IMG/VR virus record: IMGVR_UViG_3300037067_004728 | Coordinates: 41,377-105,376 of that record | DNA: 64,000 nucleotides | DNA from: a virus | Lineage: Duplodnaviria > Caudoviricetes | Reading direction: 5' to 3' (one strand) | In this document: one piece after another, positions 18,523-51,266 of the stretch | How the letters are laid out: the number at the start of each line of letters is the position of its first letter | Position numbering within the stretch: the first letter of the stretch is position 1 | Notes under the pieces: model-generated | Told to the model about the DNA's origin: nothing | Databases searched by the model: none | Seen by the model: the letters and a program-made list of their open reading frames with translations, nothing else | Translations under genes and position numbers: made by a program

Positions 18523-18606
18523 GGGAGAATTGAGCATTGGCAGGCTCAACTGACTGTAAATCAGCCTACCCAAAAGGTACTGTAGGTTCAACTCCTGCTT
18601 CTCCCA
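18523..18606 (+). tRNA. tRNA-Tyr(GTA)
   Basis: gggagaa/ttctccc acceptor, CTGTAAA loop, long variable arm, GGTTCAACTCC T-arm. Confidence 0.9.
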
Positions 18607-18981
18607 CTTTAACCATAGGAGCATTTATATGGAAAAATTGATTGTCCTGATTTTGATTTTCATTGTGAGTCTTGTAGGTTTTATGATTACTGACGCTGCA
18701 TTTAGCACGTCAGAAACCACTCAAGGTGTTGTGTTGGAAAAGGTTTATTCTCCTGCAACAACTGGCACGGGAGTTGGTGTAGCCGCAGGCGGAAAGACAA
18801 TAACGCCAGTAGTTGTGGTTACTTCTTCGGCAGAAGATTTTGTAGTTTTGGTGAAATGCCCGTATGGCACTTTTTCTAGCCATACTACTGCCGGTATCTA
18901 TGGAAGTGTCGATAAGGGCGTTATTGTTACTTTAATTGTTAATAGGGGTTATTGGACAAACGGTATTTGGTGTGTAAAAAT

Positions 18982-19053
18982 TGCAATGTAGCTCAATGGT
19001 AGAGCGCCTGCCTGTTAAGCAGTGGGTTGGAGGTTCGAGTCCTCCCGTTGCAG
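18982..19053 (+). tRNA. tRNA-Asn(GTT)
   Basis: cloverleaf, CTGTTAA loop, GGTTCGAGTCC. Confidence 0.95.
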
Positions 19054-19055
19054 CT

Positions 19056-19128
19056 AGGCCCGTAGCTCAGTGGTTAGAGCAGGGGCCTTATAAGCCCAAG
19101 GTCGCAGGTTCGATTCCTGCCGGGCCTA
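19056..19128 (+). tRNA. tRNA-Ile(TAT)
   Basis: aggcccg/cgggcct acceptor, CTTATAA loop, GGTTCGATTCC. Confidence 0.9.
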
Positions 19129-20154
19129 CTAGGAGATTTATGATGTATTACATGCTTGAAAGATTTGCTTTTCCATATTGGATTTCTATGGGAATTATCT
19201 TGCAAGGTGATTTTCGTAAACACATGGTTGTGTTAGAGACATTTCGTAACTTGCATCCTGAAACGGATTTTCGTGCAAAACGTATTAGCGACAAAGCTGC
19301 TATGATTTTTGCCGCTCGTGGAATGACTATTATGACCGCCCCAGATGTATTAAAAAATGTCTAAAATTAGGAAGGTAAAAAAGTCGTATTGACTCATGTT
19401 TAGAACGCCGCGATTACTGCTGGAAGCACATAACGCGGACGGCTGGAAGCCAGTTAGAATTTACTGTAATTTCAAGTCAGTTCGCTTGATGCTAAATGTT
19501 TTACCACGTATTGCACAGGCATACGGCGGTATTGATAATGTGCGTGTAAAATATTTAGCAACACACGAACAAATTGCAGAAGCAAAATTAGCTATTGATA
19601 GGCAAAATAGACCATGACAGAACATATAAATAAGTGGCAAGTATCGAATGAGAAAATGACGGTATTGGTGCAAACTAGAAACGGTATTATTACAAACGCC
19701 GCGCCCGTTGTTCAAATTTTTATTGGTCAGCCATTAGATAATTTGGCAGTTTGGATGAGTAAAATGGGGTCAACAACTATTACCCCTTTAGAAGGGCATA
19801 TATGCTAAAACGAATTGTGTTTGGCACGATATTTGCTTATTTGATTCTAGGTTTGCCGGTATTGGCAATGGGGTTTATTTTTCCAGCGGCAGCCGGTGCC
19901 CCATTATGGCAAGCTATTTTATTTGCTATTTTTGCTTGGTTGCTGTGGCCATTTATTATTACAGGAACTTTTTGTGGTTGACGATATTGTTGATTGCATT
20001 ATAATGTGGATTGTTGTAATCATAGTCGCTATAGGCGCTATTGGATCAGTAATTGGATGGGCGCTCTTGTATCTTGTGTATGCCATTGCAGTAGCCGGTG
20101 TTTATGGGCTGGCCTATTGTATTTTACCATTTGTCTGGTTACGGAGAAAAATAA

Positions 20155-20733
20155 ATGCGTTACGTGAGTCTTGATATAGAAACAACGGGCTTGGGTGATA
20201 ATTGTCAGATTCTACAATTAGCTGCCGTACTTGATGATACAAACAAGCTACTGACTGATTCTCTGACGTTTAATGCTTTGGTGTATGATTATTGGTATGG
20301 CGGTGAACCTTTTGCTTTAGCCTTGAATCATAAGATTTTTGAAACTTTGTCTAAATGTAAGCCGGGCGATATTTCAGTTCACAATGGTAAGACAGTTTTG
20401 ATTCTGGAACCGCATACATTGATTCCCGCATTTAGTCTCTGGTTGAAGGAAATTGGAGAAGAAAAGATTTTACTTGCAGGTAAGAATGTTGCCAGTTTTG
20501 ATCTTCGTTTTCTAAAGAACATGGAGGGCTGGTCAGACGTTAAGCATCATTACCGTTTTCTCGATCCTGGTAATCTTTTCCTATTACCAACTGACACCAT
20601 TCCACCAAGTACCGATGAATGTTTGAAACGGGCTGGGATTAAGAAGGAAGTATCTCACGACGCTTTAGATGATGCGTATGATGTTTGTATGCTAATTCGT
20701 AATTGGATTTGTAGACAGGAACAATTACGATGA
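20155..20733 (+). CDS. DEDDh 3'-5' exonuclease
   Basis: LDIETTG, GKN..FD..FL, HDALDD. Confidence 0.9.
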   Translation: MRYVSLDIETTGLGDNCQILQLAAVLDDTNKLLTDSLTFNALVYDYWYGGEPFALALNHKIFETLSKCKPGDISVHNGKTVLILEPHTLIPAFSLWLKEIGEEKILLAGKNVASFDLRFLKNMEGWSDVKHHYRFLDPGNLFLLPTDTIPPSTDECLKRAGIKKEVSHDALDDAYDVCMLIRNWICRQEQLR

Positions 20734-25540: not shown

Positions 25541-25628
25541 GGAAGGGAGCCGAATACGGTTGGTCGGGCCGGTTTGCTAAACCGTGCGACCCTTCGGGGT
25601 CATGCGGGTTCAAATCCCGCCCCTTCCG
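25541..25628 (+). tRNA. tRNA-Ser(GCT)
   Basis: ggaaggg/cccttcc acceptor, TTGCTAA loop, long variable arm, GGTTCAAATCC. Confidence 0.9.
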
Positions 25629-26016
25629 CTTGACAAATCAAAATTGTATGATATGATTAAGATATGCTAAAGGCAATTAGATTTGACTTGCGATTGAATC
25701 TTCTTAAAGTGCATGTTGGTGTGCGCATACGTCCGCTTATACGATCATGGAAGTGGTTTCCGTATGGTTTGATCCCTACTTGTTTGTGGTTGGGGCCAAT
25801 AGAGTTTACAGTTTTTGCAGGGAAATACGCCAAGTGGCTTGATTTTTCATGCTCGGTGGATTTTGATTTGAAGGAAGAGGGTATTTCATTCCGATTTAAT
25901 CCATTTTGGTGGGAATTAGGAACAACTTTTTCATTAGACGGTATGAATGGGTATTTTACTGCCTATCCAAAATGTGGCCCCCTTCATATTTACGCATACA
26001 AATGGCTAGAACGTGT

Positions 26017-26745
26017 ATGAAACCACTTAATCAAAAATGCTACGGGAGTATCGGCCACTTGCCCGGTTCACGGGTAGGTAAAACCGATCATTATATCACT
26101 GACGGGCAGGCTCGTATTGCAACTGTTAAGGGACGAGATTGTCACGATGTAGTGATCGTGCAGGAAAAATTAGATGGCGCATGTGTCGGGGTCGCTAAAA
26201 TAAATAACGAGTTAGTAGCATTGACTCGTGCTGGTAATTTGTGCGTTCGGTCGCAATTTCCTCATCATCATACTTTTGTGGAATGGATGTATCGCCACTA
26301 TAATCGTTTTAATGCCCTACTTGATGAAGGCGAACGAGTTGTTGGAGAATGGTTAGCTCTTGCTCACGGGACATTATATAATAATCAACAGAAAGGTTGG
26401 GAACCTTTTGTAGCTTTTGACCTAATGAAAGGTACTGAACGATTAGTCTATCAGTTATTTAGCAGAAGGGTCAATAAATTTTTTAATACGCCACCGCTTA
26501 TTTCTGAGGGCCTCCCCCGTACTATTGACTGGGTTCGAGAAGAGTGTCCTGAAAGTCGATATGGCGGTGAGCATGTTGAGGGCTACATTTGGCGGGTTGA
26601 ACGAAATCCGTATGCAAAGAATGGTCCGTATGTTGACTATCTTTGCAAATGGGTGAATCCTACTTATGTTGCAGGTAAGTATCTTCCAGAAATAAGTAAT
26701 ACTTTACCTGTTTGGAATTATTATGAGGCCCCGGTACGCGCATGA
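26017..26745 (+). CDS. RNA ligase family protein
   Basis: QEKLDG motif I, GEW, FDL, EGY..R, K motifs; ATG at 26017. Confidence 0.8.
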   Translation: MKPLNQKCYGSIGHLPGSRVGKTDHYITDGQARIATVKGRDCHDVVIVQEKLDGACVGVAKINNELVALTRAGNLCVRSQFPHHHTFVEWMYRHYNRFNALLDEGERVVGEWLALAHGTLYNNQQKGWEPFVAFDLMKGTERLVYQLFSRRVNKFFNTPPLISEGLPRTIDWVREECPESRYGGEHVEGYIWRVERNPYAKNGPYVDYLCKWVNPTYVAGKYLPEISNTLPVWNYYEAPVRA

Positions 26746-28511: not shown

Positions 28512-28592
28512 GGGCAGGTGGCGAAATGGCAAACGCTGGGGTCTTAAAAGCCCCTACCTGCGGGTTTGCGGGTTCGAGTCCCGCCCTGCCTA
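28512..28592 (+). tRNA. tRNA-Leu(TAA)
   Basis: gggcagg/cctgcct acceptor, CTTAAAA loop, GGTTCGAGTCC. Confidence 0.9.
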
Positions 28593-29195
28593 CTTGACAA
28601 TCTAAAAATTTGAGGTATAATTAAGATATGAAGTTTGGATACCTGAATAGATTTGGTGATTACTGGTATATGCCCCGGATGGATGGCTTGAGCGTTTTTA
28701 ATGCTACCACTGGGGACCGAGTAGCTGAATGGTATGTCCATGATTCTAGGAATGAATGGAAAACATGGTCCTTTCATTGTTTAGTAAATACCTTGCCACC
28801 TGATGTGGCAAGCCGATTCGGGCATGTTGTCCGCGATTGGGAAAAGTATGTGGATGATCGGCTTGTTGAATGTTTTAATTATTCGCGTCAGGACTAACTA
28901 TGCGCCCCGCTCGAATTGTCAATTATATCACATTTGCCGCTGACCGATGTGAATTTGAACTTGAAGTAAGTTTTTGGTATACTCCTGGCGATGAATGGGA
29001 TGGGCCAGAGATTGAACTGGGTAGAGTACAAAGAGTTTTAGCCATTGTAACTCCATCTGGTTTAGTGATCGAGCAGCGGTGGTTAGAACAACGTGGATTT
29101 TATGCGTGGGCAAAACAATATGCCGAGAGAGAACTTGATCGGCGTTTGCAGCCCGATAGCCGAGTTTGGTGGGATTTATTAAGGATAGCAGAAGA

Positions 29196-29342
29196 ATGTT
29201 AAGCACATTTCACTGGTTTGTAGTGGCTTTGGTGGCCTTCTTGCTCTTTGGTAACAGATTGCCGTCAGTGATGAAGTCATTGGGGCAGGGAATCAATGAG
29301 TTTAAGAAGGGATTAAACGATCCAGACGAACCGAAGCATTGA
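29196..29342 (+). CDS. tatA: twin-arginine translocase TatA (not in ORF track, 48 aa)
   Basis: translates MLSTFHWFVVALVAFLLFGNRLPSVMKSLGQGINEFKKGLNDPDEPKH: TM, FG hinge, amphipathic helix, FKK. Confidence 0.9.
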   Translation: MLSTFHWFVVALVAFLLFGNRLPSVMKSLGQGINEFKKGLNDPDEPKH

Positions 29343-29557: not shown

Positions 29558-29629
29558 GCCGCTGTAGAATAGTGGTTAGTTTACCGGCCCTTCAAGTCGG
29601 ATACCTGGGTTCGAGTCCCAGCAGCGGTA
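29558..29629 (+). tRNA. tRNA-Glu(TTC)
   Basis: gccgctg/cagcggt acceptor, CCTTCAA loop, GGTTCGAGTCC. Confidence 0.85.
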
Positions 29630-29631
29630 CT

Positions 29632-29705
29632 GTGACTGTAGCTCAATTGGTTAGAGCGGCAGGTTGTGGTCCTGCATGTTGCGGGTTCGACTCCCGCCAG
29701 TCACC
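29632..29705 (+). tRNA. tRNA-His(GTG)
   Basis: gtgactg/cagtcac acceptor, TTGTGGT loop, GGTTCGACTCC. Confidence 0.9.
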
Positions 29706-29966: not shown

Positions 29967-29994
29967 TTGACAAACTGAGTTTTTGAGATATAAT
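29967..29994 (+). promoter_or_regulatory. sigma70 promoter for the Y RNA-Ro60 operon
   Basis: TTGACA-N16-TATAAT; predicted start about 30001. Confidence 0.85.
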
Positions 29995-30001
29995 TAAGTT
30001 A

Positions 30002-30062
30002 TAGGGCCGAAGCGGCTAGGTTATCACTGTTAATGATTCCGCCTACCGCGTTCCTTGCCCTA
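30002..30062 (+). ncRNA. Y RNA copy 1
   Basis: TAGGGCCGAAG...CTTGCCCTA bulged-C Ro-binding stem, GGTTATC motif; upstream of Ro60. Confidence 0.8.
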
Positions 30063-30072
30063 ACCGTATTTG

Positions 30073-30131
30073 TGGGCCGAAGGTAGTCGGTTATCATTAC
30101 ATGGCGAAACCCGATTACCACACCTTGCCCA
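30073..30131 (+). ncRNA. Y RNA copy 2
   Basis: TGGGCCGAAGGTAGTCGGTTATC...CCGATTACC...CTTGCCCA. Confidence 0.8.
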
Positions 30132-30142
30132 TTTTGAACTTA

Positions 30143-30204
30143 GGGGCCGAAGATTATCGGTTATCAATTTGGTTTTGACGCACCCGATAGTCAACCCTTG
30201 CCCC
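30143..30204 (+). ncRNA. Y RNA copy 3
   Basis: GGGGCCGAAGATTATCGGTTATC...CCGATAGTC...CTTGCCCC followed by T-run. Confidence 0.8.
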
Positions 30205-30225
30205 GCTTTTTAATTTGGAGATTTT

Positions 30226-31830
30226 ATGCACAATTTGGCTAAGCACATTTCCGTTAAGACAACCCCTCAAAGCCGCGCTATCCCTGGTAAGAATCAGGTG
30301 CAGAATAATGCTGGCGGCTTTGTTTATTCCCTCGACTGTTGGAAGCGTTTGCAGAGATTCCTTATTCTAGGGTCAGATGGCGGAACTTATTATGCTACGG
30401 AAGCCAAGTTGACGATTGACAATGCTGGTGTGGTTGCCGAATGTGCAGCCACGGATGCACGGCGAACAGTCGATATGATTGTGGAAATTAGCCAGTCTGG
30501 TCGCGCACCGAAGAATGATGCGGCTATTCTTGCACTGGCTATTCTAGCCGCCAATGATAATGATGCTGTGCGACAATTGGCTTTGTCGGCGGTGTCAAAG
30601 GTTTGCCGTATCGGAACCCATATTTTCCAGTTTACGGCGGCATGTCGTGAATTGCGTGGTTTCGGTCGTGGGTTGCGAGAAGCAATTGCAGGCTGGTATA
30701 ATGATAAGCCCGTTGCTGACCTTGCTTATCAGGTTACAAAGTATCGAAATCGTGCAGGATATACGCATAGGGATTTGTTGCGGCTAAGCCACCCCAATCC
30801 TGTCAGCGAGCAACGTGATGATTTGTACGGTTGGATTGTTGGCAAAGGTAAGAACTGGGTTGAAGCCCCTAATGTCGATGATCCTTTGGCTTACACGTAT
30901 GCACTTGATCGAATCGGCGAATTGGACCCGGCAAGTTTCAGGGATGCAATCCGACTGATTGAGGACTATAATCTAGCGTTTGAGCATGTACCGACTTGCT
31001 TCTTGAATAATGCTAATGTTTGGGATGCCTTGTTGCCGAATCTCAAGCCGACTTCATTGATCCGAAATCTTGGTAAGATGACTACTGTTGGCTTGTTGAA
31101 GCCGTTGTCTAAGTCTACAAGCTATGTCTGTGAGGTCTTGAACAATGCGGAGCGAATTCGTAAGGCACGGGTACACCCACTTTCTATCTTACTGGCGCTG
31201 AATACTTATCAGCAGGGGCATGGGTTACTTGGCAATCTATCGTGGCGTCCTGTTCCTCAGATTACGTCGGCCTTGGAGTCCGCATTTTATCTGGCCTTTG
31301 ATGCCGTTGAACCGACGAACAAGCGGCACTTTTTGGCTGTTGATGTTTCTGGGTCGATGGGTTGGTCATATTTGGCTAATACCCGCTTGTCGGCTCGTGA
31401 GGCTTCTGCTTGCATGTCGCTGGTGACTAGCAAGGTTGAGCCGAATACGTACACGCTTGGATTCTCGGATGAGTTGACTGATTTGGGTATCACGTCTCAT
31501 TCTAATCTGAATGACGTATTGAATACGATTAAGAATCTCCGTATGCGTCGTACTGACTGTGCTTTGCCTATGATCTATGCGAAGCAGAATAAGTTGGAGG
31601 TTGATGCGTTTATTGTCTACACTGACAATGAGACATGGTTTGGGAGTATTCATCCCAGTCAGGCGCTTGACCAGTATCGTCAGGCCAGCGGTATTGATGC
31701 GAAGTTGATTGTAGCTGGTATGACGGCCACAGGCTTCACTATTGCTGACCCCAATGATACAGGCATGTTGGATGTTGTCGGTTTTGATGCCGCTTGCCCG
31801 GCTATTATGGCGAATTTTGTGAGGTCTTGA
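30226..31830 (+). CDS. rsr: Ro60/TROVE domain RNA-binding protein (Rsr)
   Basis: NNAGG, RFLILG..GGTYY, KYRNR.G.THRDLLRLSHP, DVSGSM vWA, TDNETW, DVVGFD. Confidence 0.95.
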   Translation: MHNLAKHISVKTTPQSRAIPGKNQVQNNAGGFVYSLDCWKRLQRFLILGSDGGTYYATEAKLTIDNAGVVAECAATDARRTVDMIVEISQSGRAPKNDAAILALAILAANDNDAVRQLALSAVSKVCRIGTHIFQFTAACRELRGFGRGLREAIAGWYNDKPVADLAYQVTKYRNRAGYTHRDLLRLSHPNPVSEQRDDLYGWIVGKGKNWVEAPNVDDPLAYTYALDRIGELDPASFRDAIRLIEDYNLAFEHVPTCFLNNANVWDALLPNLKPTSLIRNLGKMTTVGLLKPLSKSTSYVCEVLNNAERIRKARVHPLSILLALNTYQQGHGLLGNLSWRPVPQITSALESAFYLAFDAVEPTNKRHFLAVDVSGSMGWSYLANTRLSAREASACMSLVTSKVEPNTYTLGFSDELTDLGITSHSNLNDVLNTIKNLRMRRTDCALPMIYAKQNKLEVDAFIVYTDNETWFGSIHPSQALDQYRQASGIDAKLIVAGMTATGFTIADPNDTGMLDVVGFDAACPAIMANFVRS

Positions 31831-33833: not shown

Positions 33834-34503
33834 AATGAAGTTAATTCTCTGTCCAAAATGTCAAGATGTAGTTAAAGGCGATTATGCGCCGCGTACTTGT
33901 AAATGTGGTGCTAGTGGACTACAATACTTAAAAGACGGTCTTAATGCCATCTATTGGGGTGAGGCAATACCACTTGGATTTGCCAACAGTACCCTAGTCA
34001 AAGCAGTTAATAATCAACCTGCTACAGGTATGGGGCGTACTTTTGAGGCTTTTGTGATCCCTAAAGACTGTCCTACTTTTAAGAAACAATGCCCACATGA
34101 ATGGTCGGGAGCCTATATCGCTAAAGATGGGTTCACTTGTAATCAAAGGTGTACAAAATGTGGTTTGACAAAGCCATATTCTGATGTATAATTGAATATG
34201 AAGGTGAACGATATAGCTATGGGAGTAGAGCATGAAACAATGTAGCTGGGTCGAGTGTGTTGCTTGTACTAAACCGATTCCTAAACCGCGAATTCGGAAA
34301 TGGAACTGGATCAAGATTTATGAAAATGATGTAGTTAATTTCTGGGTTTGCGAACAAGACTTAAAAGAGTCATTTGTGCAAGAAGCACATATTGCCTTTG
34401 GCAAGGCTCTCGATCAGGTAATACGCCTTGGGGCCTATCCAGAAGTTCTCTTTCCAGTTGTGGCCCGGCATCGTAGGGAATTGACAGTGGAGCAACAAAA
34501 TCC

Positions 34504-40781: not shown

Positions 40782-41130
40782 GGGGACGAATCGGATTCGA
40801 CCGGATAGCTAGAAGTGTAGGATGCGTGCCGTGGTTGGACGACAGGCCACGTAAAAAGTCGCCCGTTAAATCTTAATTGCCAAGCCTAGCTTTGCAATGG
40901 CTGCGTAAAGCAGCCCCGGTTGAGAGTCCTAGCCCGATGGACTTGACTACCGGCCATAAATCGGGACCGCCTTGACCGACGCCAGTGAGTCAAGGTTAAA
41001 TAAACTGGATAGCAACCCGCCAACCTTGTCGATTTGGGAAGCGGGAAGCGAAATATCAAAAATCGACTATGCACGTAGACGACTGCATGGAAGTATCGCG
41101 GGACGCGGGTTCAATTCCCGCCGTCTCCAC
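40782..41130 (+). ncRNA. ssrA: tmRNA
   Basis: GGGGACGAATCGGATTCGAC 5' end, GGTTCAATTCCCGCCGTCTCCA 3' end, tag ORF 40879-40908 AKPSFAMAA*. Confidence 0.92.
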
Positions 41131-41390
41131 TTAACCATAGCTCGGCAGTTATGGTGCCGCCCGTTGTGGCCGGGCGGCAATTTTATTTGGAGGTTTTATG
41201 GATCGTGAATTAGTAGAAACTGTGCGTGATTTTGTGAAAAATGGTAAGGTGTTTGTGCATCTTATCACAGAATCTAAGATTGTCGAATTTCCTGCCAGCG
41301 GTGTGCATAGTGCGGGCGGGTATTTGGTGGTCGAAGTCAAAATTCCAGAGCTACCACTTGACAAGCATTAAATGTGTGGTAGTATTGAAT

Positions 41391-42069: not shown

Positions 42070-43350
42070 ATGCCGAGTTGTTGGGAATGTGGTGGCGATT
42101 TTGCTTTGTCCGAGTTGACGCAACGCGGGCAAGCCCATTTTTGTCAACAATGCTACGCCACTTTATATTGCCGCTGTTCGGTATGTGGCCGGGAAGTTGA
42201 ACATGATGAGGCAATTTTTAGTGCCACCGACCACCGGCCATACTGTCAGGCTTGCTATCAAGAGCGGTTAGTACACTGCCATAATTGCGGGCGCGAAACA
42301 AACAGAAACACTCGGCACACAATCGAGGACCATAGCTATTGTAGCTCATGCTTTGATCGGTTGTATACGCATTGTGCTAACTGCGATACCATTTTGCATC
42401 GGCATGATACGTGGTCCACCCCCGGTAACGATAGATACTGTCAACGCTGTTTTGACGAAAATTGCAGCGTATGTAGCCGTTGCGGTGAAACATTTTGGAA
42501 TTGCGATATGCGCCGTACCGACCACGGCGTATTTTGTGATGAATGTTATCGTGAAAATGATGAGTGGTCGGCGGGCGAATTCATTATTTCCGATCCGCAT
42601 TATGATGTAATCGGATCGAAACGCCGCTATGGTGTCGAACTTGAAACTTCACGATGCAATGATTATCGGTCACTGCATGGCAATACAATATGGGAATGTA
42701 AAACAGATTGCTCGATTGAGGGGCGCGAGTTTGTTTCCCCAATTCTGTGCGGGGATGAGGGGTTAATGGAAATCACTGCATTTTGTACCATTGCTCGCCG
42801 AAAGCGTTGGCAAGTCAATAGATACTGTGGTTATCATGCCCATTTCGATGTGGCCGATGAAAGCTGGGAAGCCTTGCGAAGTATCGCGTATGCGTACCGC
42901 AAAACGTATGACTTATGGTGTTGTCTAGTGTCAGAACAACGGGCAAACAACCCTTATGCTGGGTCGCCGGATTATATGCCAGAGGATGTACGGGCTATTC
43001 GCAATGCTTCCGATTGGGATTATTTTGTCGGTGCGCGTGACCGATTCGAGTTTGTCAACTGGCGGGCTTATCTGGTACACGGAAGTTTTGAGGTTCGATC
43101 CCATGATGCTACTCTTGACGCGAATGTCATTTGTAACTGGATTAAACTTCATGCTCGCTTTATGGATCGTGTTAAGACAATGACTCTTGACGAAATTGAC
43201 GACCAATTTAGTGGTAACATAGCATCACAATTTGCAGCTTTGAGCGAATTTGTGGGTGAAGAATTATCTTTGGAATACGCTGTTATTGCCGAAGAATTTG
43301 GGCATACCCTCATACCGAGGGAGATTGTGGCCCTTGCCCCGCCGTTTTAA
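42070..43350 (+). CDS. amidoligase (COOH-NH2 ligase, Amidoligase_2-like) with N-terminal CxxC repeats, paralog 1
   Basis: YGVELE, DCS..G.EFVSP.L.G, CGYHAH.D, R...N, EVR.H. Confidence 0.8.
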   Translation: MPSCWECGGDFALSELTQRGQAHFCQQCYATLYCRCSVCGREVEHDEAIFSATDHRPYCQACYQERLVHCHNCGRETNRNTRHTIEDHSYCSSCFDRLYTHCANCDTILHRHDTWSTPGNDRYCQRCFDENCSVCSRCGETFWNCDMRRTDHGVFCDECYRENDEWSAGEFIISDPHYDVIGSKRRYGVELETSRCNDYRSLHGNTIWECKTDCSIEGREFVSPILCGDEGLMEITAFCTIARRKRWQVNRYCGYHAHFDVADESWEALRSIAYAYRKTYDLWCCLVSEQRANNPYAGSPDYMPEDVRAIRNASDWDYFVGARDRFEFVNWRAYLVHGSFEVRSHDATLDANVICNWIKLHARFMDRVKTMTLDEIDDQFSGNIASQFAALSEFVGEELSLEYAVIAEEFGHTLIPREIVALAPPF

Positions 43351-43480
43351 TTTTGACTTGACTTTTCCACGACCTGTGGTATAGTTAATAGAGTGAGGGG
43401 CGATAAAAAGCCGTCGCCTAGCAAAACTCACTAGGCTGTAGTAGCCCAACTGTCAGGCTTGTGAGAGTGAGGTATTTTGC

Positions 43481-44395
43481 ATGTGTGGTTTGTTTGGTGC
43501 GATTGGTTTGGGTTGGAATGAGGGCGTCATTAGGGCGCTGACGTGGGCGAACCAAGAGAGGGGTACAGATTCTCTTGGTTTCTTCGATTCGTCCGGCAAG
43601 ATGATTAAGTGTGCTGAAACCCCCAGTGATGCGCTGTGTAAGGATAACATTTCGCGCTGGCTTGATGCGTCTTGCCGTGGGTCTGAAAAGCTGGGTCGGG
43701 CCGCGAGTTGGTTTATTGCCGGGCATACTCGGCTTGCCACCCGTGGTAAGGTGAACCGTCAGAATTCGCACCCGTTCCGATACGGTCGAATTATCGGTTC
43801 CCACAATGGAATGATCGACGCCCCCAAGGGGTATGTGGTCGATTCGCAGCATTTGTTCGATGCGTTGCACAAGGCCAAGGGTGACTATAATTCGGCATGG
43901 GCCGATATTACGGGTTACTGGGCGGTAACGTGGTTTGACGATAATGCTTTCTATCTGCAAGTCCATAATGGCGACTTGACGGTGGCCCGTAAGGGAGAGG
44001 TATGGTACTACTCCTCGGCATGGTCTCACCTGGAAAGCTGCATCGGCACTGCCGATGAGGTTATCACGCTGAAAGAGGGCGAAACCCTGCGGTTTACTCT
44101 TGAAAATGGCGTGATTGTCAAGTCCGATGCTCCTAAGTTTGTGTCGGCTGCCCCGGATTACTGGGTTAAGAAATACGGTTGCAGCAATACCAACGATTGG
44201 GAGGATGAATACTACGGGTCGGGCCGTTCCTTCCGTCGTCACGGTAGCCGTGGCAAGGGTTCATGGTACGATCACCATGATTACACAAGCACGACTACCC
44301 CAACAAGCACGGGCACTGTCAAGGATTATGATGCCGATTGGCGGGAAGCATGGGAAGCCTACTCTACGGAGAGTGAACACGCCAAGGTTGACTAA
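43481..44395 (+). CDS. class II glutamine amidotransferase
   Basis: N-terminal MCGLFG, RG.DS.G, GHTRLAT.G, N.HPF, HNG, VDS. Confidence 0.9.
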   Translation: MCGLFGAIGLGWNEGVIRALTWANQERGTDSLGFFDSSGKMIKCAETPSDALCKDNISRWLDASCRGSEKLGRAASWFIAGHTRLATRGKVNRQNSHPFRYGRIIGSHNGMIDAPKGYVVDSQHLFDALHKAKGDYNSAWADITGYWAVTWFDDNAFYLQVHNGDLTVARKGEVWYYSSAWSHLESCIGTADEVITLKEGETLRFTLENGVIVKSDAPKFVSAAPDYWVKKYGCSNTNDWEDEYYGSGRSFRRHGSRGKGSWYDHHDYTSTTTPTSTGTVKDYDADWREAWEAYSTESEHAKVD

Positions 44396-44505
44396 TGGTT
44401 GTCGGTTTCTACGGGCGGTAACATAAAAACTTGCCGCCCATTTTTATTTGACTTCCCCTTTTTTTGATGATATAGTTAAGTTGTTCACTTAACCATGAGG
44501 TACTA

Positions 44506-45561
44506 ATGCCAGCATCAAGTTTACCCTTACCCGATCTAGCGGATACCCCCACACAGTCACGATACCAATGTCGGTTATGTGGCCGTCGATTCACGGAGAA
44601 TCCGTGCCGTGGCCCAGAGAATATGTGTCTGTGCCAAAATTGCTACGACCGTGAATGTTTCGTTTGCACTGTTTGCGGACGAATCGAATTTAGCAACGGT
44701 CGCCGACAACTGGCGCTAGAACCCAATGGCCCGCCCGTCGCTATTTGCCGCAACTGTGAGCATGAATATCGAACGTGGAATCATGCGGAATTTGTAGTTG
44801 AAGATGCAAGCTACAAAAAGATTCGCAGTACCCGCAAGTTTGGTATCGAGTTGGAAACATCGGATTGCCCCAATTATCGCAGTCTAAAAGGGGCAACGCC
44901 TTTTGGCGCGAAAGTTGATTGCTCGATTCATGGTATGGAATTCACTTCTCCGATTTTGTATGGCGATGAGGGTCTTGCCGCTGTTGAAGAATTTTGCAAT
45001 CACGCTGATCGTCTCGATTTTGACGTGGATAGCGATTGCGGGTATCACCTGCATATTGATATGCGGGGTGAATCGGTTGACGCCTTGAAGTCGGTTGCGT
45101 ATGCGTACACGAAAGCAGACTCGGTATGGCGTTTGCTTGTCGATTCATTCCGAGCGAATGATTGCGGTTACTGCCGCCGCCCGGAATTTGGTCGGAGTGA
45201 AATTTCGCGGGTATGGGATGAGTACAGCATGGAGAGATTTTGCGACCGGCAGAATCGCTACACTCTATGCAATCTTAATGCCTACACTAAGTTTGGCAGT
45301 TATGAGATTAGGTTGCATCAGGGAAGTTTAGATGCCCGTGTCATTTGCAACTGGATTAAGGCCCATTTGCGGTTTGTCGATTGGGCGAAAGATAAGACAT
45401 TCGACGAAATTGACGACGCCTTTCGTGGATCGGATTTAGCCCGCTGGGAATCACTGAAAGCCATTTTTGGCGATATTGACCTTAACCGCTACTATGGCCG
45501 TGTACGTCGTGGCCGGTTGAACGAAAGCACCGAACGTGAACGGGCCGAAGTTGCTGTATAG
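44506..45561 (+). CDS. amidoligase paralog 2
   Basis: FGIELE, EFTSPIL.G, CGYHLH.D, RY..N, EIRLHQG. Confidence 0.8.
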   Translation: MPASSLPLPDLADTPTQSRYQCRLCGRRFTENPCRGPENMCLCQNCYDRECFVCTVCGRIEFSNGRRQLALEPNGPPVAICRNCEHEYRTWNHAEFVVEDASYKKIRSTRKFGIELETSDCPNYRSLKGATPFGAKVDCSIHGMEFTSPILYGDEGLAAVEEFCNHADRLDFDVDSDCGYHLHIDMRGESVDALKSVAYAYTKADSVWRLLVDSFRANDCGYCRRPEFGRSEISRVWDEYSMERFCDRQNRYTLCNLNAYTKFGSYEIRLHQGSLDARVICNWIKAHLRFVDWAKDKTFDEIDDAFRGSDLARWESLKAIFGDIDLNRYYGRVRRGRLNESTERERAEVAV

Positions 45562-46549
45562 CGATAGGCCCTGTTTTACAACCCCTCACTCATAGGGGAG
45601 AACCCGACCTAATAAGTCGGGTTTCTTTTTAATCGGTTGGTCCATTTGTCGGGGTCATATTTCCAGACGTGCGCTTCTATGACCCCGATCATTGGAATCT
45701 TTAGAAAATTACCACCTATACTTGACAAGCTAAAAGACTATGATATAGTTTTAATATGTCACTCAAAAATGGTGGTTTTAAGTTGAGACACATGCGTTGG
45801 CTGCCTAAGCCACATTGGATCGGAGTCAATATGTCGCCTCTGGGCGAGTTAGCGTTTTGTATCTTCTGGGGTATCATCGGCCTTATCTGTTTATGGATAG
45901 CTCATTCGTAAAGACATGGGTTTTTCAACTGATGGCTACGGGTTGTGACTATCTTACTGGTAGTCATAATCGCACCGTGTATAGCATAACAGTTTTTGCT
46001 ACCCGTGAATTGGCCGAGAGCCGAATCGAAAGTTTCAAGTCTGCCTGTCTAAATCGACTATTGGAAGCCCCTATTAAAGTGGTAGTTATGCCACTAGAAG
46101 TGATTAGCGAATAATTCACTTGACTTTCTCGAAAAAGATGATAGGGTAGTAGTATGACACACCTGACTGAATTACCGCCGATCAAACTACCACAACTTGT
46201 ATCAGCACCGTTCTTTATGCTGGTACAAGAGGGTGAGATTCTGGATTGTTGCCAAAATCCAAACGCCCTTATGTGGTCCCTCTTGAATGACGATACTGAT
46301 TTTTCGGTGGCCGTGGGTGTAATCAATGAGGATGGCAAGCGGGAAATCGTTGGTACTTGCGCTGAGTTTAAGACTAGGCCCAACAGCACTATTGCCTATC
46401 TTACATCGGATATGGACGGCTACCGTCGGCTGGTAAGCAAAGGTGACGCCGCCGACTGCATCCGTAATCGAGTCTGTACGTTGTATGGAAAAGGCCATTT
46501 GTCCGATCCATGCAATTTTTCCAAGGTCGAAATGATTGAGGGTTAATCC

Positions 46550-47485
46550 ATGCCACGTTGTCACACCTGTAATGCTCTAGTCCCAACCGATCAAATGCAC
46601 CGTACTCCCTACGGGGAGAATGTTTGCTGGCAATGTTTTGATCGAGACTTCATACATTGCAATGAATGTGGTCGCCCGGCATGGCGCGGCGATTGTCCTA
46701 ACGATGACTTGTGCTATGAATGTTGGGACCGGGTACGATTTTGGAATTCGGAGGAAGTGAGCCACCTTACCACGATTAAAAAGACTGGCAGTGGCCGTTG
46801 TTTTGGTATCGAGTTGGAAACTTCGCAGTGTGACAACTACCCCAAAATGCGGGGTGAAACCTGTTTTGGGGTGAAAGAGGATGGATCGGTTGACGGCATG
46901 GAATTTTACTCCCCGATTTTGTGCGGAGATAAGGGCCTTGCAGAAATCCGAAAATTTTGCCGGTTGGCAAAGCGGCATGACTTCGAGGTTGATGATACTT
47001 GCGGGTATCACCTGCATCTTGATATGCGGGATACTACCATTGTTCAACGCAAACGAATCGCGTATGCGTATCGCCTGACATTTAGCTTGTGGCAGCATTT
47101 GGTACGGGAGGACCGATGGCACAATACGTTTTGCGAAGGCCCTAATTACAGCCCGCAAGAGCTACGGGATACCCATAATTTTACTACGTTCGAGCGCCGG
47201 CAATGCCGCTATCAGTTTGTCAACCTGCGGGCATTTTGTGACCATAGCACGTATGAACTGCGTGGCTTTCAGGGGACACTTGACTACCGCGAAATTTGCA
47301 ACTGGATTAAAGCCCATTTGCGTTTTGTCGAATTCGTAAAAGACACGCCGATGGCTGAACTTGATGCCATGTTTGGGCAGGGATTACGTAAAGCCAAACG
47401 GAGTTTGCGTAAGGTACTTGGCACTTCACTAAGCAACTACTATGCAAAACTCTGGCGTAAACATGCCCATAGGGTGGCCGTATGA
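46550..47485 (+). CDS. amidoligase paralog 3
   Basis: FGIELE, DGS..G.EFYSPIL, CGYHLH.D, RY..N, ELR. Confidence 0.8.
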   Translation: MPRCHTCNALVPTDQMHRTPYGENVCWQCFDRDFIHCNECGRPAWRGDCPNDDLCYECWDRVRFWNSEEVSHLTTIKKTGSGRCFGIELETSQCDNYPKMRGETCFGVKEDGSVDGMEFYSPILCGDKGLAEIRKFCRLAKRHDFEVDDTCGYHLHLDMRDTTIVQRKRIAYAYRLTFSLWQHLVREDRWHNTFCEGPNYSPQELRDTHNFTTFERRQCRYQFVNLRAFCDHSTYELRGFQGTLDYREICNWIKAHLRFVEFVKDTPMAELDAMFGQGLRKAKRSLRKVLGTSLSNYYAKLWRKHAHRVAV

Positions 47486-47766
47486 ACTTGAACCCGTTAC
47501 GCTATCAGTTAATGACCCAGGTTGAAAGCCTGATTCGTGGGACTGAAACCCTATTAGCCGATCCTCAGATTCAGAGCCGGATACTGGTTGCTGTTGTAGC
47601 GCGTGACTGTCTCATACGCCAATTATTTTGGGGTGAGCAATTACTGGCGACATTGCGGGATGAGGGAAACTATTATCATGCCCGCGATGAGTTTAACATT
47701 GCAAGCCGGGCGAGTGAGAAAGCCCTAAACATACTCCATGATTTTCATAACCCAAGGTGTTCATAA
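47482..47766 (+). CDS. hypothetical protein, paralog of 56341-56661
   Basis: shared AR..LI.Q.FWG...LA..RD.G motif. Confidence 0.55.
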   Translation: MNLNPLRYQLMTQVESLIRGTETLLADPQIQSRILVAVVARDCLIRQLFWGEQLLATLRDEGNYYHARDEFNIASRASEKALNILHDFHNPRCS

Positions 47767-49269
47767 TGTTTTCAGTTAGACAAAAACGCGAAATCGCCGA
47801 CGCCGTGCAACGTATTCTAAGGGATACTAACCACCCCGAATTGCCCGCCGGTGAGATTCAATTCAAGCTGCATGTTGATGGTGCCCGACCAGGAAGTAGT
47901 TGGGCGGATATACAGAATAACGGGGCTGTACCGAATCCAACGGTTAATCCGCATAATGAGCGGCAGGATTCACTTGACAAACCAACAAAATAAGGTAGAA
48001 TAGATTATATGAAATACGCCATTCGATTAAGTCACCTACCGCCCGTCGTTATCTACGCCACCCTCAAGCGCTCGGCTGAGGATGTTGTAGCGGCCTTGTG
48101 TGAGGAAGCTACCGAAGCGAAGCAATGCGGCATGGGTATTTGTGGTTATGTCAACAAGGTTCTACGCTGGTTGTCTGACGATCTTCTGTGCGAATCGTGC
48201 CAACTGGTTGAAGATGATACCCGACTTGTCTTTACCGATACGCGGGATGCTGATTATCTTATCACTAAGACGGATAAGGGCTTTGACGTGGTGCGCCTAA
48301 CCGATTCGTATGATCGGGAGCTATTGGGCCGATAAGCATGATATTCAACGAATGGTGGACGCGATACGGTAGTGCTTGTGTTGGCATGGAAACTATGCAA
48401 GAGGTAGCCCGCCTAGCTTATGAGGAGGGGGTTAAGGCTGGGTATGATACCGGATATGATGAGGGTTATTCTAACGGCTATGATACCGGCAGCAATGACG
48501 AAAGAGAGGTTCATTTCGGATGACATTCGATCAGTGGTGGGAAGAAAATAAAGAGGATTGCACATACTCCGAACTGCCAACCGACGTGATAAAGTTGATT
48601 GCGATGGCTGCGTATGATGCCGGGTGGGAGGAAGGGTGGGACAAAGGCTGTATTGTCCCGTCAATACAATGAGATACGCAATACAAACCCCCATTGCTGT
48701 TTTCTGTTGCCGATTGTTTTTGCCAAAACAATTAGTGATAGACCGATTGCATACACGTAATACGTCATGCGCGGGGGTCTACACTAGAACACGTTGGATA
48801 CACGAAAAGTTACTTGCGATGAATCCATCGTTGGCTATCTTGGACCATTTCAACCAGGATGATGATAGACTTCCTAGCAATCAAACCCCGGAAGAATGGT
48901 GCGAAGTACGAATCTTTGCCTATGATTTAGGATTCTGAAAATGAAGTATGCCGTAATTATGAGGGACGTGATTTTCTGTTGTGAATTGCACGATACCCCT
49001 ACCGATGTTCTTAACGCCTTGAATGAATGGGATAACCATGATCTTGGCCCCTTTCAGCGTAAGAGTCTAGCCCGCGATTGCTTGGAAGATTTGGAATTGA
49101 ACCAGTGGCATAGCGGCGATGTTCATGTTATCGAGGATAGCTTGCCGCTGATGGACAACCAGCCGGTCAACCATTGGGCGAATCATGTAATCTTGTGGGA
49201 TGCCACTAGCGGCTTTTATTTTGAGCGCTGTTTATCGGGCGATTGCGGCAACTGTAACTGTGGTGGGAA

Positions 49270-49842
49270 ATGCTAACCAGTTTGCAATTTACTGAGAAGT
49301 GGCGTTGCTTTGCAGAGGGCGATACTATTAAGTTTCGCCCCGGCGTTAATCTACTGGTTGGCGATCAAGGCAGTGGTAAGAGTAGCGTACTACAGGCTAT
49401 TGCAGCTAGTGCTAAGGCAAAGAAATACACGTATCAAGTTGACCTTGGCAAAAAGGTCAAGGTGGTGGCTGATAAGATGCCTGCGGGCGGCTTTGATTTT
49501 GAGAAGGATAACCGCCGTACACGTCCCTACTTTGACCATGATAATTTTCAAGCACACATAGCAATGATGTGGTCAAGCCACGGGCAATCAAACCTTGCAA
49601 TCTTGCGTAGTATGGCAAAGATGCAAGGTACTTTGATATTCCTTGATGAGCCGGATATGGCCCTTAGCATACGGTCGGTCTACAAATTGATCGACCTGTT
49701 AAATGCGGCTGCTATTCGTAAATGTCAAATTGTTGCCGCCGTTCATAACCCGATTTTAATTCAGGCATACCCCGAAGTTTACTCATTAGAAAAACGAAAG
49801 TGGGTATACAGTGACGAATTCATTTTGAGTCAAACACCATGA
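49270..49842 (+). CDS. ABC/AAA-type ATPase
   Basis: GDQGSGKS Walker A, SHGQ signature, FLDEPD Walker B, H-loop. Confidence 0.85.
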   Translation: MLTSLQFTEKWRCFAEGDTIKFRPGVNLLVGDQGSGKSSVLQAIAASAKAKKYTYQVDLGKKVKVVADKMPAGGFDFEKDNRRTRPYFDHDNFQAHIAMMWSSHGQSNLAILRSMAKMQGTLIFLDEPDMALSIRSVYKLIDLLNAAAIRKCQIVAAVHNPILIQAYPEVYSLEKRKWVYSDEFILSQTP

Positions 49843-51170: not shown

Positions 51171-51266
51171 GTGGTAGCGCTTTAAGACGTGCCGGATTCA
51201 TGGCCGGAAGGGTGCAAGTCCCAATAAGGTCTAGTAGACCAACCGGGTGCAAGGCCCGGCTATCAT
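51171..51266 (+). ncRNA. tRNA-like RNA with two T-loop hairpins
   Basis: 7-bp gtggtag/ctatcat stem abutting ccggg-TGCAAGG-cccgg; second ggg-TGCAAGT-ccc; followed by terminator. Confidence 0.45.

What the first reader, a model, noticed from the sequence alone, without database searches (positions are those of the whole stretch)
29967..31830. Phage operon of three tandem minimal Y RNAs plus Ro60
Seen: a near-consensus promoter starts transcription at about 30001, followed by three ~60-nt repeats (30002-30062, 30073-30131, 30143-30204) and then the Ro60 gene. Each repeat is GGGCCGAAG-stem-GGTTATC-variable loop-stem-CTTGCCC. The stems covary between copies (gcggctagg/cctaccgc, ggtagtcgg/ccgattacc, gattatcgg/ccgatagtc), which supports structural selection. 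Known: Ro60 binds a bulged-C helix (GxCCGA/CUUGxC), and bacterial Y RNAs usually lie next to rsr. From memory, copy 2 (GGGCCGAAGGUAGUCGGUUAUC) closely resembles the 5' end of human Y1 (GGUCCGAAGGUAGUGAGUUAUC). These RNAs lack the tRNA-like domain of bacterial YrlA. Inference: a phage-encoded Ro60 RNP with three interchangeable, vertebrate-like short Y RNAs.
Basis: partly seen in the sequence, partly recalled or inferred. Interest (0 to 1): 0.92.

Follow-up and report, generated by a model that had tools for sequence, protein, structure and literature searches.

The report
Three Y RNAs before phage Ro60
A phage genome carries a gene for the ring-shaped RNA-binding protein Ro60, preceded by three small hairpin RNAs that bear the protein's conserved docking site; this is a clean new example of a protein-RNA partnership already known from animals, bacteria and a few phages.

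Summary
A perfect sigma-70 promoter (29967-29994) is followed by three 57-60-nt hairpins spaced exactly 70 nt apart. A canonical Ro60 gene (30226-31830) follows, on an IMG/VR phage contig.

Each hairpin has the Ro60 docking helix GGGC[C]GA/UUGCCC with a bulged C and a G.U pair, a covarying 9-bp stem, an invariant GGUUAUC, and its own apical loop.

Comparative support:
- A covariance model built from the three copies found 176 matches beside 80 viral Ro60 genes, all on the Ro60 strand.
- It found 179 matches beside 80 bacterial Ro60 genes.
- It found no match beyond the three copies in this 105-kb phage record.
- Covariation is strong: 96.7% of cells paired, and 14 of 15 pairs show double changes.
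- No tRNA-like YrlA is present.

The reading as short Y RNAs is therefore well supported, although transcripts and binding remain untested.

The kind is already known. Chen 2014 reported Y RNAs near Ro60 in 254 bacteria and 22 phages. Thermus phage phiLo (2025) has two upstream Y-like RNAs that bind its Ro60. This scan has also flagged many similar arrays on other DNA.

Two points are new:
- About a third of the short Y RNAs, including copy 1, end in an anticodon-loop-like 7-nt loop.
- Relatives carry tRNA-ordered Y RNAs.

The parts
29967..29994 (+). Sigma-70-type promoter, TTGACA-16 nt-TATAAT. The expected transcription start is about 30000-30002, i.e. at or 1-3 nt before the first hairpin.
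   Evidence: 12/12 match. It is one of 4 perfect sites in the window against 0.08 expected. The start site is inferred from spacing, not measured.
30002..30062 (+). Y RNA copy 1 (core 30004-30060, 57 nt). It has the docking helix with a bulged C, an 8-bp stem with one bulge, UUAUC, and an apical 4-bp/7-nt hairpin with loop CUGUUAA.
   Evidence: Fold -23.2 kcal/mol, z -3.4. R1 66.9 bits, R2 48.7 bits. The loop equals the anticodon loop of the phage's own tRNA-Asn. The apical hairpin is identical in L007:1871-1928.
30072..30132 (+). Y RNA copy 2 (core 30074-30130, 57 nt). It has the docking helix, a 9-bp stem, UUAUC and a poorly structured 20-nt loop.
   Evidence: Fold -14.7 kcal/mol. R1 71.2 bits, R2 65.5 bits. 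Rfam Y_RNA 23.8 bits and RF01656 28.6 bits, both below gathering.
30143..30204 (+). Y RNA copy 3 (core 30144-30203, 60 nt). It has the docking helix, a 9-bp stem, UUAUC, and an apical 4-bp/7-nt hairpin with loop UUUGGUU.
   Evidence: Fold -17.7 kcal/mol, z -2.6. R1 67.8 bits, R2 60.5 bits. The apical hairpin and the junction to Ro60 are identical in L007:2410-2490.
30205..30225 (+). Leader between copy 3 and Ro60: a T5 run (30207-30211) 2 nt after the hairpin, then GGAG (30217-30220) 5 nt before the ATG.
   Evidence: Sequence. The same TTTTTAATTTGGAGA junction occurs in L007. The terminator scan did not call it. A role as a partial terminator is inference only.
30226..31830 (+). Ro60 (TROVE + vWA/MIDAS) gene, 534 aa.
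   Evidence: Pfam PF05731 and PF25045. phrog_850 1e-77. PDB human Ro60 9nen E 1e-123, Xenopus 1yvp 2e-119, Deinococcus Rsr 2nvo 1e-113. His189 aligns with Xenopus His187, and the DVSGS MIDAS motif is kept.

Best explanation
The unit is a phage-borne Ro60 ribonucleoprotein cassette.

1. Host RNA polymerase starts at the consensus promoter.
2. It transcribes three short Y RNAs and then the Ro60 mRNA as one precursor. This is inferred; there is no terminator call in between.
3. Host RNases cut in the 13-nt A/U-rich spacers and trim back to the hairpins. This is inferred by analogy with Mycobacterium smegmatis, where YrlA and YrlB lie upstream of rsr and are processed from a single precursor.
4. 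Each roughly 60-nt hairpin docks on the outer surface of the phage Ro60 ring through the conserved handle. The handle consists of 4-6 G-C pairs, a bulged C, a G.U pair and an A-U pair, plus GGUUAUC at the top of the second stem. This handle corresponds to the GGUCCGA helix of animal Y RNAs and to the GNCGAA(N)G...YUAY module of bacterial YrlA.
5. As in Deinococcus, Salmonella and Thermus phage phiLo, the bound RNA would gate the Ro60 cavity. Its variable head would connect Ro60 to a partner such as the host PNPase.

The three heads differ from each other and are individually conserved between phages, so the three RNAs probably give Ro60 three different specificities.

What is shown: sequence, fold, covariation, and strand-specific linkage to Ro60 across hundreds of loci. 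What is inferred: transcription, processing, binding and partner recruitment.
For: - Anatomy.
- Protein identity.
- Phage origin.
- Linkage, first model: the model R1, built only from the three copies, hit 127 sites in 80 viral Ro60 loci, all on the Ro60 strand. It hit 84 sites in metagenome loci and 93 in bacterial loci, 2 of the latter on the other strand.
- Linkage, second model: the broader model R2 gave 176 hits in viral loci with none on the minus strand. It gave 179 hits in bacterial loci, where 7 minus-strand hits all come from one locus.
- Specificity: neither model hit anything beyond the three copies at E <= 0.01 in the phage's own 105 kb.
- Position: 120 of 142 viral hits lie upstream of Ro60 and 110 of those within 700 nt. 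There are 1-6 per locus.
- Covariation on 111 distinct sequences: 96.7% of cells paired, 14 of 15 pairs with double changes, score 0.618 against 0.19 shuffled and at most 0.12 slid. The bulged C is present in 115 of 115 and the G.U pair in 102 of 111.
- Motifs: GNCGAA(N)G and YUAY are the conserved YrlA motifs (PMC4201824). The bulged ninth nucleotide in GGUCCGA is critical for Ro60 binding and the H187S mutant loses Y RNA binding (PMC11277228). H189 is invariant here.
- Precedent: phiLo Ro60 binds two upstream Y-like RNAs and host PNPase (PMC12135203).
Against: - There is no RNA evidence. The only runs holding fragments of the stretch are contigs of uncertain type and do not cover the hairpins.
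- No binding data exist.
- The copies fall below Rfam's gathering scores.
- Alignments made with the model lean towards its structure, and hits were selected by the conserved motifs. The invariance of GGUUAUC is therefore partly circular.
- The hairpins sit in what would be the Ro60 5' leader, so a cis role is not excluded.
- The contig is only 79% complete by CheckV. A YrlA-type RNA could lie in the missing part.
Confidence: 0.8

Rival explanations
1. The three hairpins are not released. They act in cis as Ro60-binding sites in the 5' leader of the Ro60 mRNA, giving feedback control of translation or mRNA stability. This would be molecular mimicry of the true RNA ligand, as in ribosomal-protein leaders.
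For: - They lie between the promoter and the Ro60 start with no called terminator.
- Copy 3 ends 22 nt before the ATG.
- The copy 3-to-RBS junction is conserved in L007.
- Most relatives also have a hairpin 20-100 nt before Ro60.
Against: - 21 of 142 viral hits lie downstream of Ro60, and some lie 1-1.6 kb away or are separated from it by an ORF. An example is L007:1871-1928.
- One bacterial array is on the opposite strand (L178).
- Arrays of up to 9 copies with individually conserved heads are hard to explain as operators.
- In M. smegmatis, upstream Y RNAs are processed out of the precursor and bound by Rsr (PMC4201824).
- The two roles are not exclusive.
Confidence: 0.12
2. The RNAs are made by the phage to titrate or redirect the host's own Ro60 (Rsr) or PNPase, rather than to serve the phage protein.
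For: - The handle is nearly the same in bacterial and viral loci, so cross-binding is plausible.
- phiLo Yrl RNAs bind host PNPase on their own (PMC12135203).
Against: - The phage carries its own full-length Ro60 immediately downstream.
- The pairing of RNA and gene is the rule in 59 of 78 viral loci.
- The host is unknown, so whether it has Rsr is not testable here.
Confidence: 0.05
3. The repeats are generic structured repeats (terminators, attenuators or REP-like elements) or short coding ORFs with no relation to Ro60.
For: - T runs follow copies 2 and 3.
- ORFs of 40-47 aa overlap the region on both strands.
Against: - The conserved blocks are exactly the Ro60-binding motif.
- Matches are confined to the Ro60 neighbourhood and strand across more than 1.4 Mb searched.
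- Only about 18 of 142 relatives have a T4+ run after the hairpin.
- The substitutions are compensatory in RNA stems, not codon-like.
Confidence: 0.02

Closest known systems
Thermus phage phiLo Ro60 with Yrl1 and Yrl2 (NAR 2025, PMC12135203; PDB 9KOP, 9L5Y)
   Same: A phage-encoded Ro60 with small Y-like hairpin RNAs encoded directly upstream on the same strand. The RNAs carry a CGAA motif. There, binding to the phage Ro60 and to host PNPase was shown by EMSA and cryo-EM.
   Different: - The phiLo protein is a distant relative: E 8e-08 to the window's protein, against 1e-123 for human Ro60.
- phiLo has two RNAs, not three.
- Its CGAA is described as lying in a large internal bulge rather than in a bulged-C helix of the animal type.
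- No conserved UUAUC or anticodon-like head was reported.
Bacterial YrlA and YrlB (Salmonella rsr-yrlBA-rtcBA; M. smegmatis; Chen et al. 2014, PMC4201824; Rfam RF02553)
   Same: - The same 5' module: GNCGAA(N)G, a stem, then YUAY.
- Encoded within a few hundred nt of Ro60 on the same strand.
- Several Y RNAs per locus.
- In M. smegmatis both lie upstream of rsr and are cut from one precursor.
- An RNA ligase gene is nearby (here PF09414 at 25906-26745).
   Different: - YrlA carries a tRNA-like T/D/acceptor domain, which is absent here.
- YrlB-type short Y RNAs were found only by immunoprecipitation and 'eluded bioinformatic discovery'. No family model exists for them.
Deinococcus radiodurans Yrn1 and Yrn2
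   Same: Described as the 'more metazoan-like' bacterial Y RNAs (10.1101/312249). They have a long terminal stem with the animal-type Ro-binding sequence, are encoded upstream of rsr, and there is more than one per locus. Yrn1 was modelled with a possible anticodon arm.
   Different: - Yrn1 is larger and has a T-arm.
Vertebrate Y RNAs (Rfam RF00019) and nematode sbRNAs (RF01656)
   Same: - A terminal helix with a bulged C in GG(U/G)CCGA opposite CUUG(A/C)C.
- GGUUAU after the upper stem.
- U-rich 3' tail.
- Copy 2 matches 19 of 21 positions of the Rfam Y_RNA 5' consensus.
- Relatives of the window's RNAs pass the RF01656 gathering score (L064 43 bits, L231 41.5 bits).
   Different: - They are about 57-60 nt against 84-112 nt, and lack the large pyrimidine-rich internal loop.
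- They are presumably made by bacterial RNA polymerase from a sigma-70 promoter as part of a polycistronic precursor, not by Pol III.
- The window's copies are below both gathering scores.
Phage Bas63 gp130, a Ro60-like counter-defence protein (bioRxiv 10.1101/2024.10.10.617714)
   Same: A phage Ro60-like protein next to a tRNA gene cluster. It was proposed to work with tRNA-like Y RNAs and shown to counter a host defence system (Ppl).
   Different: - The similarity of gp130 to Ro60 is structural only.
- No Y RNAs were identified there.
- No defence link was tested for the present phage.

Membership tests
Y RNA (Ro60-associated small RNA) | Encoded next to a Ro60 gene, usually on the same strand | tested here: met
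   The hairpins end 22 to 166 nt before the Ro60 ATG on the same strand. The same linkage holds in 59 of 78 viral loci.
Y RNA (Ro60-associated small RNA) | Terminal helix made from the 5' and 3' ends, carrying the conserved Ro-binding sequence with a bulged C (GGUCCGA / UUGAC in animals; GNCGAA(N)G in bacteria) | tested here: met
   GGGC[C]GAAG pairs with CCUUGCCC in all three copies. The bulged C is present in 115 of 115 relatives and the G.U pair in 102 of 111.
Y RNA (Ro60-associated small RNA) | Score at or above the Rfam gathering threshold (RF00019 Y_RNA, 38 bits) | tested here: not met
   23.8 bits (copy 2), 17.0 bits (copy 3), no hit for copy 1. The model is built from much longer metazoan RNAs.
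Y RNA (Ro60-associated small RNA) | Exists as a discrete small RNA that is bound and stabilised by Ro60 | not testable with these tools
   No RNA holder was listed, and the laid contigs miss the hairpins.
YrlA (Rfam RF02553) | tRNA-like domain (T arm, D arm, acceptor-like stem-loop) between the two strands of the Ro-binding stem | tested here: not met
   - The loops are 20-23 nt.
- The best RF02553 hits in the 105-kb genome score 27.8 bits and fall on real tRNAs (gathering score 69).
- The T-loop motif occurs in 3 of 112 short-class hits against 30 of 35 long-class hits.
YrlA (Rfam RF02553) | 5' module GNCGAA(N)G, a stem, then YUAY at about nt 22-25 | tested here: met
   GCCGAAG lies at nt 3-9 and UUAU at nt 18-21 of each core. 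The definition is from PMC4201824.
YrlB / Yrn2-type short hairpin Y RNA | A single long hairpin with a small loop, no tRNA-like domain, encoded beside a YrlA-type RNA and bound by Rsr | tested here: inconclusive
   The architecture fits. However, no YrlA partner is present in the 79%-complete genome, and no reference sequences or model were available for comparison.
Ro60 / TROVE protein | TROVE HEAT-repeat ring plus a C-terminal vWA domain with a MIDAS motif; full-length similarity to solved Ro60 structures | tested here: met
   - PF05731 2e-39 and PF25045 2.3e-65.
- Residues 21-532 align to Xenopus and human Ro60.
- DVSGS, TDC and YTDNET are kept, and His189 aligns with Xenopus His187.
tRNA anticodon-arm mimic (head of the hairpin) | 5-bp stem and 7-nt loop with pyrimidine-32, U33 and purine-37 | tested here: inconclusive
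   - Copy 1 has a 4-bp stem and loop CUGUUAA, the full signature, identical to the loop of the phage's tRNA-Asn.
- Copy 3 has a 4-bp stem and loop UUUGGUU, with U at position 37.
- Copy 2 has no stable hairpin.
- In the family, 17 of 30 distinct viral loops and 14 of 19 bacterial loops carry the signature, against 8.3% background.
Intrinsic terminator (copy 3 plus T run) | Stable G+C-rich hairpin immediately followed by a U tract | tested here: inconclusive
   - A T5 run starts 2 nt after a 5-bp G-C closing helix.
- The scan did not call it because the hairpin is long and interrupted.
- Only about 18 of 142 relatives have a T4+ run after the hairpin.

The most novel reading that the evidence does not exclude
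Short Y RNAs may be modular adaptors: a universal Ro60 'handle' that displays a mimic of a tRNA anticodon arm.

In this phage, copy 1 shows the tRNA-Asn loop on a UUAUC-based stem, and copy 3 shows a second head conserved between phages. The Ro60 particles would then engage, or act as decoys for, enzymes that read or cut tRNA anticodon loops, such as anticodon nucleases used in phage defence or modification enzymes like Tgt. This would work together with the phage's RNA ligase, its own tRNAs (Tyr, Asn and His among the seven) and its tmRNA.

This would complement YrlA, which mimics every part of tRNA except the anticodon loop.
Probability: 0.2. Interest if true: 0.8.

Novelty: new member of a known kind. 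Interest (0 to 1): 0.55.

Why it matters
Ro60-Y RNA particles are conserved from bacteria to humans and are a major lupus and Sjogren autoantigen, yet what the variable part of a Y RNA does is still largely open.

This locus is a compact and unusually clean case:
- one consensus promoter;
- three minimal RNAs of about 60 nt, with the animal-type docking helix and nothing else but a small head;
- a Ro60 protein that aligns end to end with the human protein.

It should be easy to express in E. coli and to dissect.

The comparative work done here also gives a covariance model for the short class of Y RNAs, which Rfam lacks and which Chen et al. 2014 said escaped bioinformatic discovery. With it, tandem arrays of 1-9 such RNAs appear as the rule beside this Ro60 clade in phages and bacteria.

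The anticodon-loop signature of many heads gives a concrete, testable idea for what the heads recognise. For phage biology, it adds to the evidence that large phages carry RNA surveillance and repair kits next to their tRNA genes.

Tried and rejected
The two closest Ro60 proteins (P0002, 86% identity; P0003, 77%) could therefore not be placed on DNA. The closest loci examined have 58-64% identical Ro60.
2. The search for related loci with the single protein found nothing in viral contigs. The alignment-based query worked.
3. Expression: no RNA holder was listed. Two wastewater runs of uncertain type hold a few 150-210-nt contigs identical to parts of the stretch, and none covers the hairpins. 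This is no evidence either way.
4. Rfam at gathering thresholds gives no Y_RNA or YrlA hit in the window or in 20 related loci.
5. My own regex hairpin detector was too loose and missed copy 1, so I dropped it in favour of the covariance models.
6. An exact 16-nt motif scan of IMG/VR returned 108 stretches, of which 80 were listed. Of those 80, 31 have Ro60 in the fetched piece, all on the same strand. About 15 of the other 49 are full hairpins by R2, and the rest are probably chance 5' motifs. I did not compute the chance expectation for the collection.
7. A regex count of 'permuted' handles cannot separate true tRNA-ordered units from ordinary tandem YrlA copies, so I use only the cases checked by fold and by the Rfam tRNA model.
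8. Coding ORFs across the repeats were rejected because the substitutions are compensatory in stems.
9. From memory I had assigned K170/R174 to Y RNA binding. The one source I could read assigns loss of Y RNA binding to H187S, so only that residue is used.
Full report
**What is there.**
The window is the right-hand 64 kb of a 105,376-bp linear IMG/VR virus record that CheckV estimates to be 79% complete. Its genes match phage families: an RNA ligase, an HNH endonuclease, amidoligases and a DEDD exonuclease. It also carries seven tRNAs and a tmRNA.

At 29967-29994 lies a perfect TTGACA-16-TATAAT promoter. Four such perfect sites occur in the window against 0.08 expected by chance, so the phage clearly uses host sigma-70-type promoters.

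From about 30002 follow three hairpins whose conserved heads start at 30004, 30074 and 30144, an exact 70-nt period. After them come a T5 run, a GGAG, and a 534-aa ORF at 30226-31830.

The ORF is a canonical Ro60:
- It has TROVE and Ro60-vWA domains.
- It aligns over residues 21-532 with human Ro60 (E 1e-123), Xenopus Ro60 (E 2e-119) and Deinococcus Rsr (E 1e-113).
- The only structurally studied phage Ro60, from phiLo, is far more distant (E 8e-08).

**Anatomy of the RNAs.**
Each copy has four parts:
- a closing helix of 4-6 G-C pairs, a bulged C, then a G.U and an A-U pair (GGGC[C]GA opposite UUGCCC);
- a small internal loop;
- a stem of 9 bp (8 bp plus a bulge in copy 1) that ends in GG followed by UUAUC;
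- a 20-23-nt head.

The second stem differs between the copies, with compensatory changes at three positions.

The closing helix is the Ro60 docking site of animal Y RNAs. A review states that the bulged ninth nucleotide within GGUCCGA is critical, and that the H187S protein loses Y RNA binding (PMC11277228). The equivalent His189 is invariant in 35 homologues.

The 5' module also fits the two motifs that Chen et al. 2014 found conserved in bacterial YrlA: GNCGAA(N)G near the 5' end and YUAY at about nt 22-25 (PMC4201824).

Rfam sees the resemblance only below threshold. Copy 2 scores 23.8 bits against Y_RNA and 28.6 bits against the nematode Y-homologue family, where the gathering score is 38 for both.

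**Is it more than chance, and is it linked to Ro60?**
I built a covariance model (R1) from the three copies alone. I searched 240 loci fetched because they encode relatives of this Ro60: 80 viral, 80 metagenomic and 80 from bacterial or archaeal genomes.
- R1 found 127 viral hits, all on the Ro60 strand.
- It found 84 metagenomic hits and 93 genomic hits; 2 of the genomic hits are on the other strand.

A second model (R2) built from 115 of these hits gave the following:
- 176 viral hits at E <= 0.01, none on the minus strand;
- 179 bacterial hits at E <= 0.001, where the 7 minus-strand hits all belong to one divergently placed array in L178;
- nothing beyond the three copies at E <= 0.01 in the phage's own 105 kb.

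On 111 distinct sequences, 96.7% of cells pair and 14 of 15 pairs show changes on both sides. The covariation score is 0.618, against 0.19 for shuffles and at most 0.12 when partners are slid. The alignment was fitted to the model, which favours the structure, but the size of the effect and the free variation of the stem sequences leave little doubt.

In viral loci the RNAs come as 1-6 copies among the best 150 hits, and up to nine in L035. Of 142 hits, 120 lie upstream of Ro60, mostly within 700 nt.

Two size classes exist:
- short, at most 80 nt (105 hits);
- long, about 100-156 nt (37 hits).

The long class carries a T-loop motif in 30 of 35 cases and the short class in 3 of 112. The long class is therefore the tRNA-like YrlA type, and the window's three RNAs belong to the short class.

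No YrlA is detectable in this phage. The best RF02553 scores are 27.8 bits, fall on real tRNAs, and are far below the gathering score of 69.

**How it most likely works.**
By analogy with the studied systems, the promoter drives one precursor containing the three RNAs and the Ro60 message. Copy 1 would begin at or within 3 nt of the transcription start. The A/U-rich 13-nt spacers would be cut and trimmed, and each hairpin would bind Ro60 through the shared handle.

The relevant precedents are:
- M. smegmatis YrlA and YrlB lie upstream of rsr and are processed from a single precursor; both are bound by Rsr.
- In Deinococcus and Salmonella, the Y RNA tethers Rsr to PNPase.
- phiLo Ro60 binds two upstream Y-like RNAs and forms ternary complexes with host PNPase.

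All of these steps are inferred for this phage. I could obtain no transcript or binding evidence.

A purely cis-acting role as Ro60 operators in the leader is the main rival. Three observations argue against it as the sole role: some relatives have the RNAs downstream of Ro60, some have them separated from it by an ORF (L007), and one has them on the other strand (L178).

**The heads are not interchangeable.**
The apical hairpins of copy 1 and copy 3 are identical, base for base, in L007, a viral contig whose Ro60 is about 60% identical. The stems below them have diverged with compensation. The copy 3-to-RBS junction is conserved there as well.

Following an earlier first-stage note on this window, I tested whether the heads look like anticodon arms. 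Copy 1 has a 4-bp stem, partly made from the conserved UUAUC, and the loop CUGUUAA. This loop is identical to the anticodon loop of the phage's own tRNA-Asn.

| Set | Short Y RNAs with a 4-bp/7-nt apical hairpin | Distinct loops with pyrimidine-32, U33, purine-37 | Binomial p |
|---|---|---|---|
| Viral | 34 of 103 | 17 of 30 | 2e-11 |
| Bacterial | 21 of 82 | 14 of 19 | 6e-12 |
| Background: 7,064 comparable hairpins elsewhere in the same loci | - | 8.3% | - |

The p values are not corrected for relatedness.

This is a real family-level bias, but it has limits. It could reflect a generic U-turn loop rather than tRNA mimicry. Copy 3 lacks the purine at position 37, and copy 2 has no clear hairpin. 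I rate the anticodon-arm-adaptor reading at about 0.2.

**Comparison with what is known.**
- Phage Ro60 genes have been known since 2003.
- Chen et al. 2014 reported YrlA-type RNAs near Ro60 in 254 bacteria and 22 phages. They noted that short second Y RNAs (YrlB, Yrn2) exist but escaped bioinformatic discovery.
- The phiLo study of 2025 showed binding of two short upstream RNAs to a phage Ro60.
- Jumbo-phage surveys list TROVE proteins among RNA-repair genes.
- Bas63 gp130, a Ro60-like protein, counters a defence system.
- This scan has itself flagged many Ro60-like genes with tandem Y-like arrays on other DNA.

The present locus is therefore a new member of a known kind. Four features set it apart:
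- the animal-type docking helix;
- the minimal size;
- the lack of any tRNA-like Y RNA in the recovered genome;
- the clean promoter-to-gene layout.

The short-class model and the head signature are, as far as I could find, not in the literature held here or in Rfam.

**Verdict.**
- Observation: confirmed.
- Interpretation: supported, except that the three RNAs are probably specialised rather than interchangeable.
- Novelty: modest.
- Interest: 0.55. This rests mainly on the locus being a tractable minimal Ro60-Y RNA system, and on the testable idea about the heads.

Noticed in passing
L003:270-391 and 399-530; L163:2061-2183; L007:1625-1755; L167:904-1024: Relatives carry Y RNAs in tRNA gene order. 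The order is acceptor 5' strand, D arm, then the Ro-binding helix closed by a 3-4-nt loop where normal Y RNAs have their ends, then the UUAUC hairpin, T arm and acceptor 3' strand. This is a circular permutation of YrlA. The Rfam tRNA model matches them end to end (41-47.6 bits) with an insert of about 55 nt at the anticodon position, while ARAGORN does not call them. Such RNAs could be matured by RNase P like tRNAs. None was found in the window's genome.
   Followed up: partly
window 30023-30037 and 30164-30178; family-wide in A5 and A8: The heads of many short Y RNAs are 4-5-bp/7-nt hairpins with the anticodon-loop signature (pyrimidine-32, U33, purine-37), often using the conserved UUAUC as the 5' strand of the stem. 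Among distinct loops, 17 of 30 viral and 14 of 19 bacterial ones carry it, against 8.3% background.
   Followed up: yes
window 28594-28621, 29967-29994, 34165-34192 (+) and 52363-52390 (-): Four perfect TTGACA-16-TATAAT promoters against 0.08 expected. Three of them begin TTGACAAA. The phage seems to rely on host sigma-70 for many small cassettes.
   Followed up: partly
window 18523-19129, 25541-25629, 28512-28593, 29558-29705, 40782-41132: Seven tRNA genes (Tyr-GTA, Asn-GTT, Ile-TAT, Ser-GCT, Leu-TAA, Glu-TTC, His-GTG) and a tmRNA with tag AKPSFAMAA. Three of the seven tRNAs belong to the queuosine (GUN) group. tRNA-Glu and tRNA-His lie only about 260 nt before the Y RNA promoter.
   Followed up: no
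window 25906-26745 and 20155-20733: An RNA ligase (PF09414, 8.5e-17) lies 3.3 kb upstream of the Y RNAs. A DEDD/RNase T-like exonuclease lies further upstream. Both are possible partners in an RNA repair or processing module.
   Followed up: no
window 29166-29342: A 58-aa ORF matches TatA/B/E (PF02416, 1.2e-10). This confirms an earlier first-stage note of a phage-borne TatA-like gene.
   Followed up: partly
L064:1904-1977 and 2249-2372; L231:2365-2436: The Rfam family for nematode sbRNAs (RF01656, Y RNA homologues) scores above its gathering threshold (41-43 bits) on viral and bacterial Y RNAs. Automatic annotation would therefore label these prokaryotic RNAs as nematode sRNAs.
   Followed up: no
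L178:4135-6344 (Chloroflexia MAG), minus strand: This is the only locus where the Y RNA array, at least 7 copies both short and long, lies downstream of Ro60 on the opposite strand.
   Followed up: no
L035:714-2467: A viral contig with nine Y RNA matches, six short and three long, spread over 1.8 kb upstream of Ro60. This is the largest array seen.
   Followed up: no
window 42070-54078: Four paralogous amidoligase-family genes (phrog_2443) and a glutamine amidotransferase-like gene lie in a row downstream of the tmRNA.
   Followed up: no
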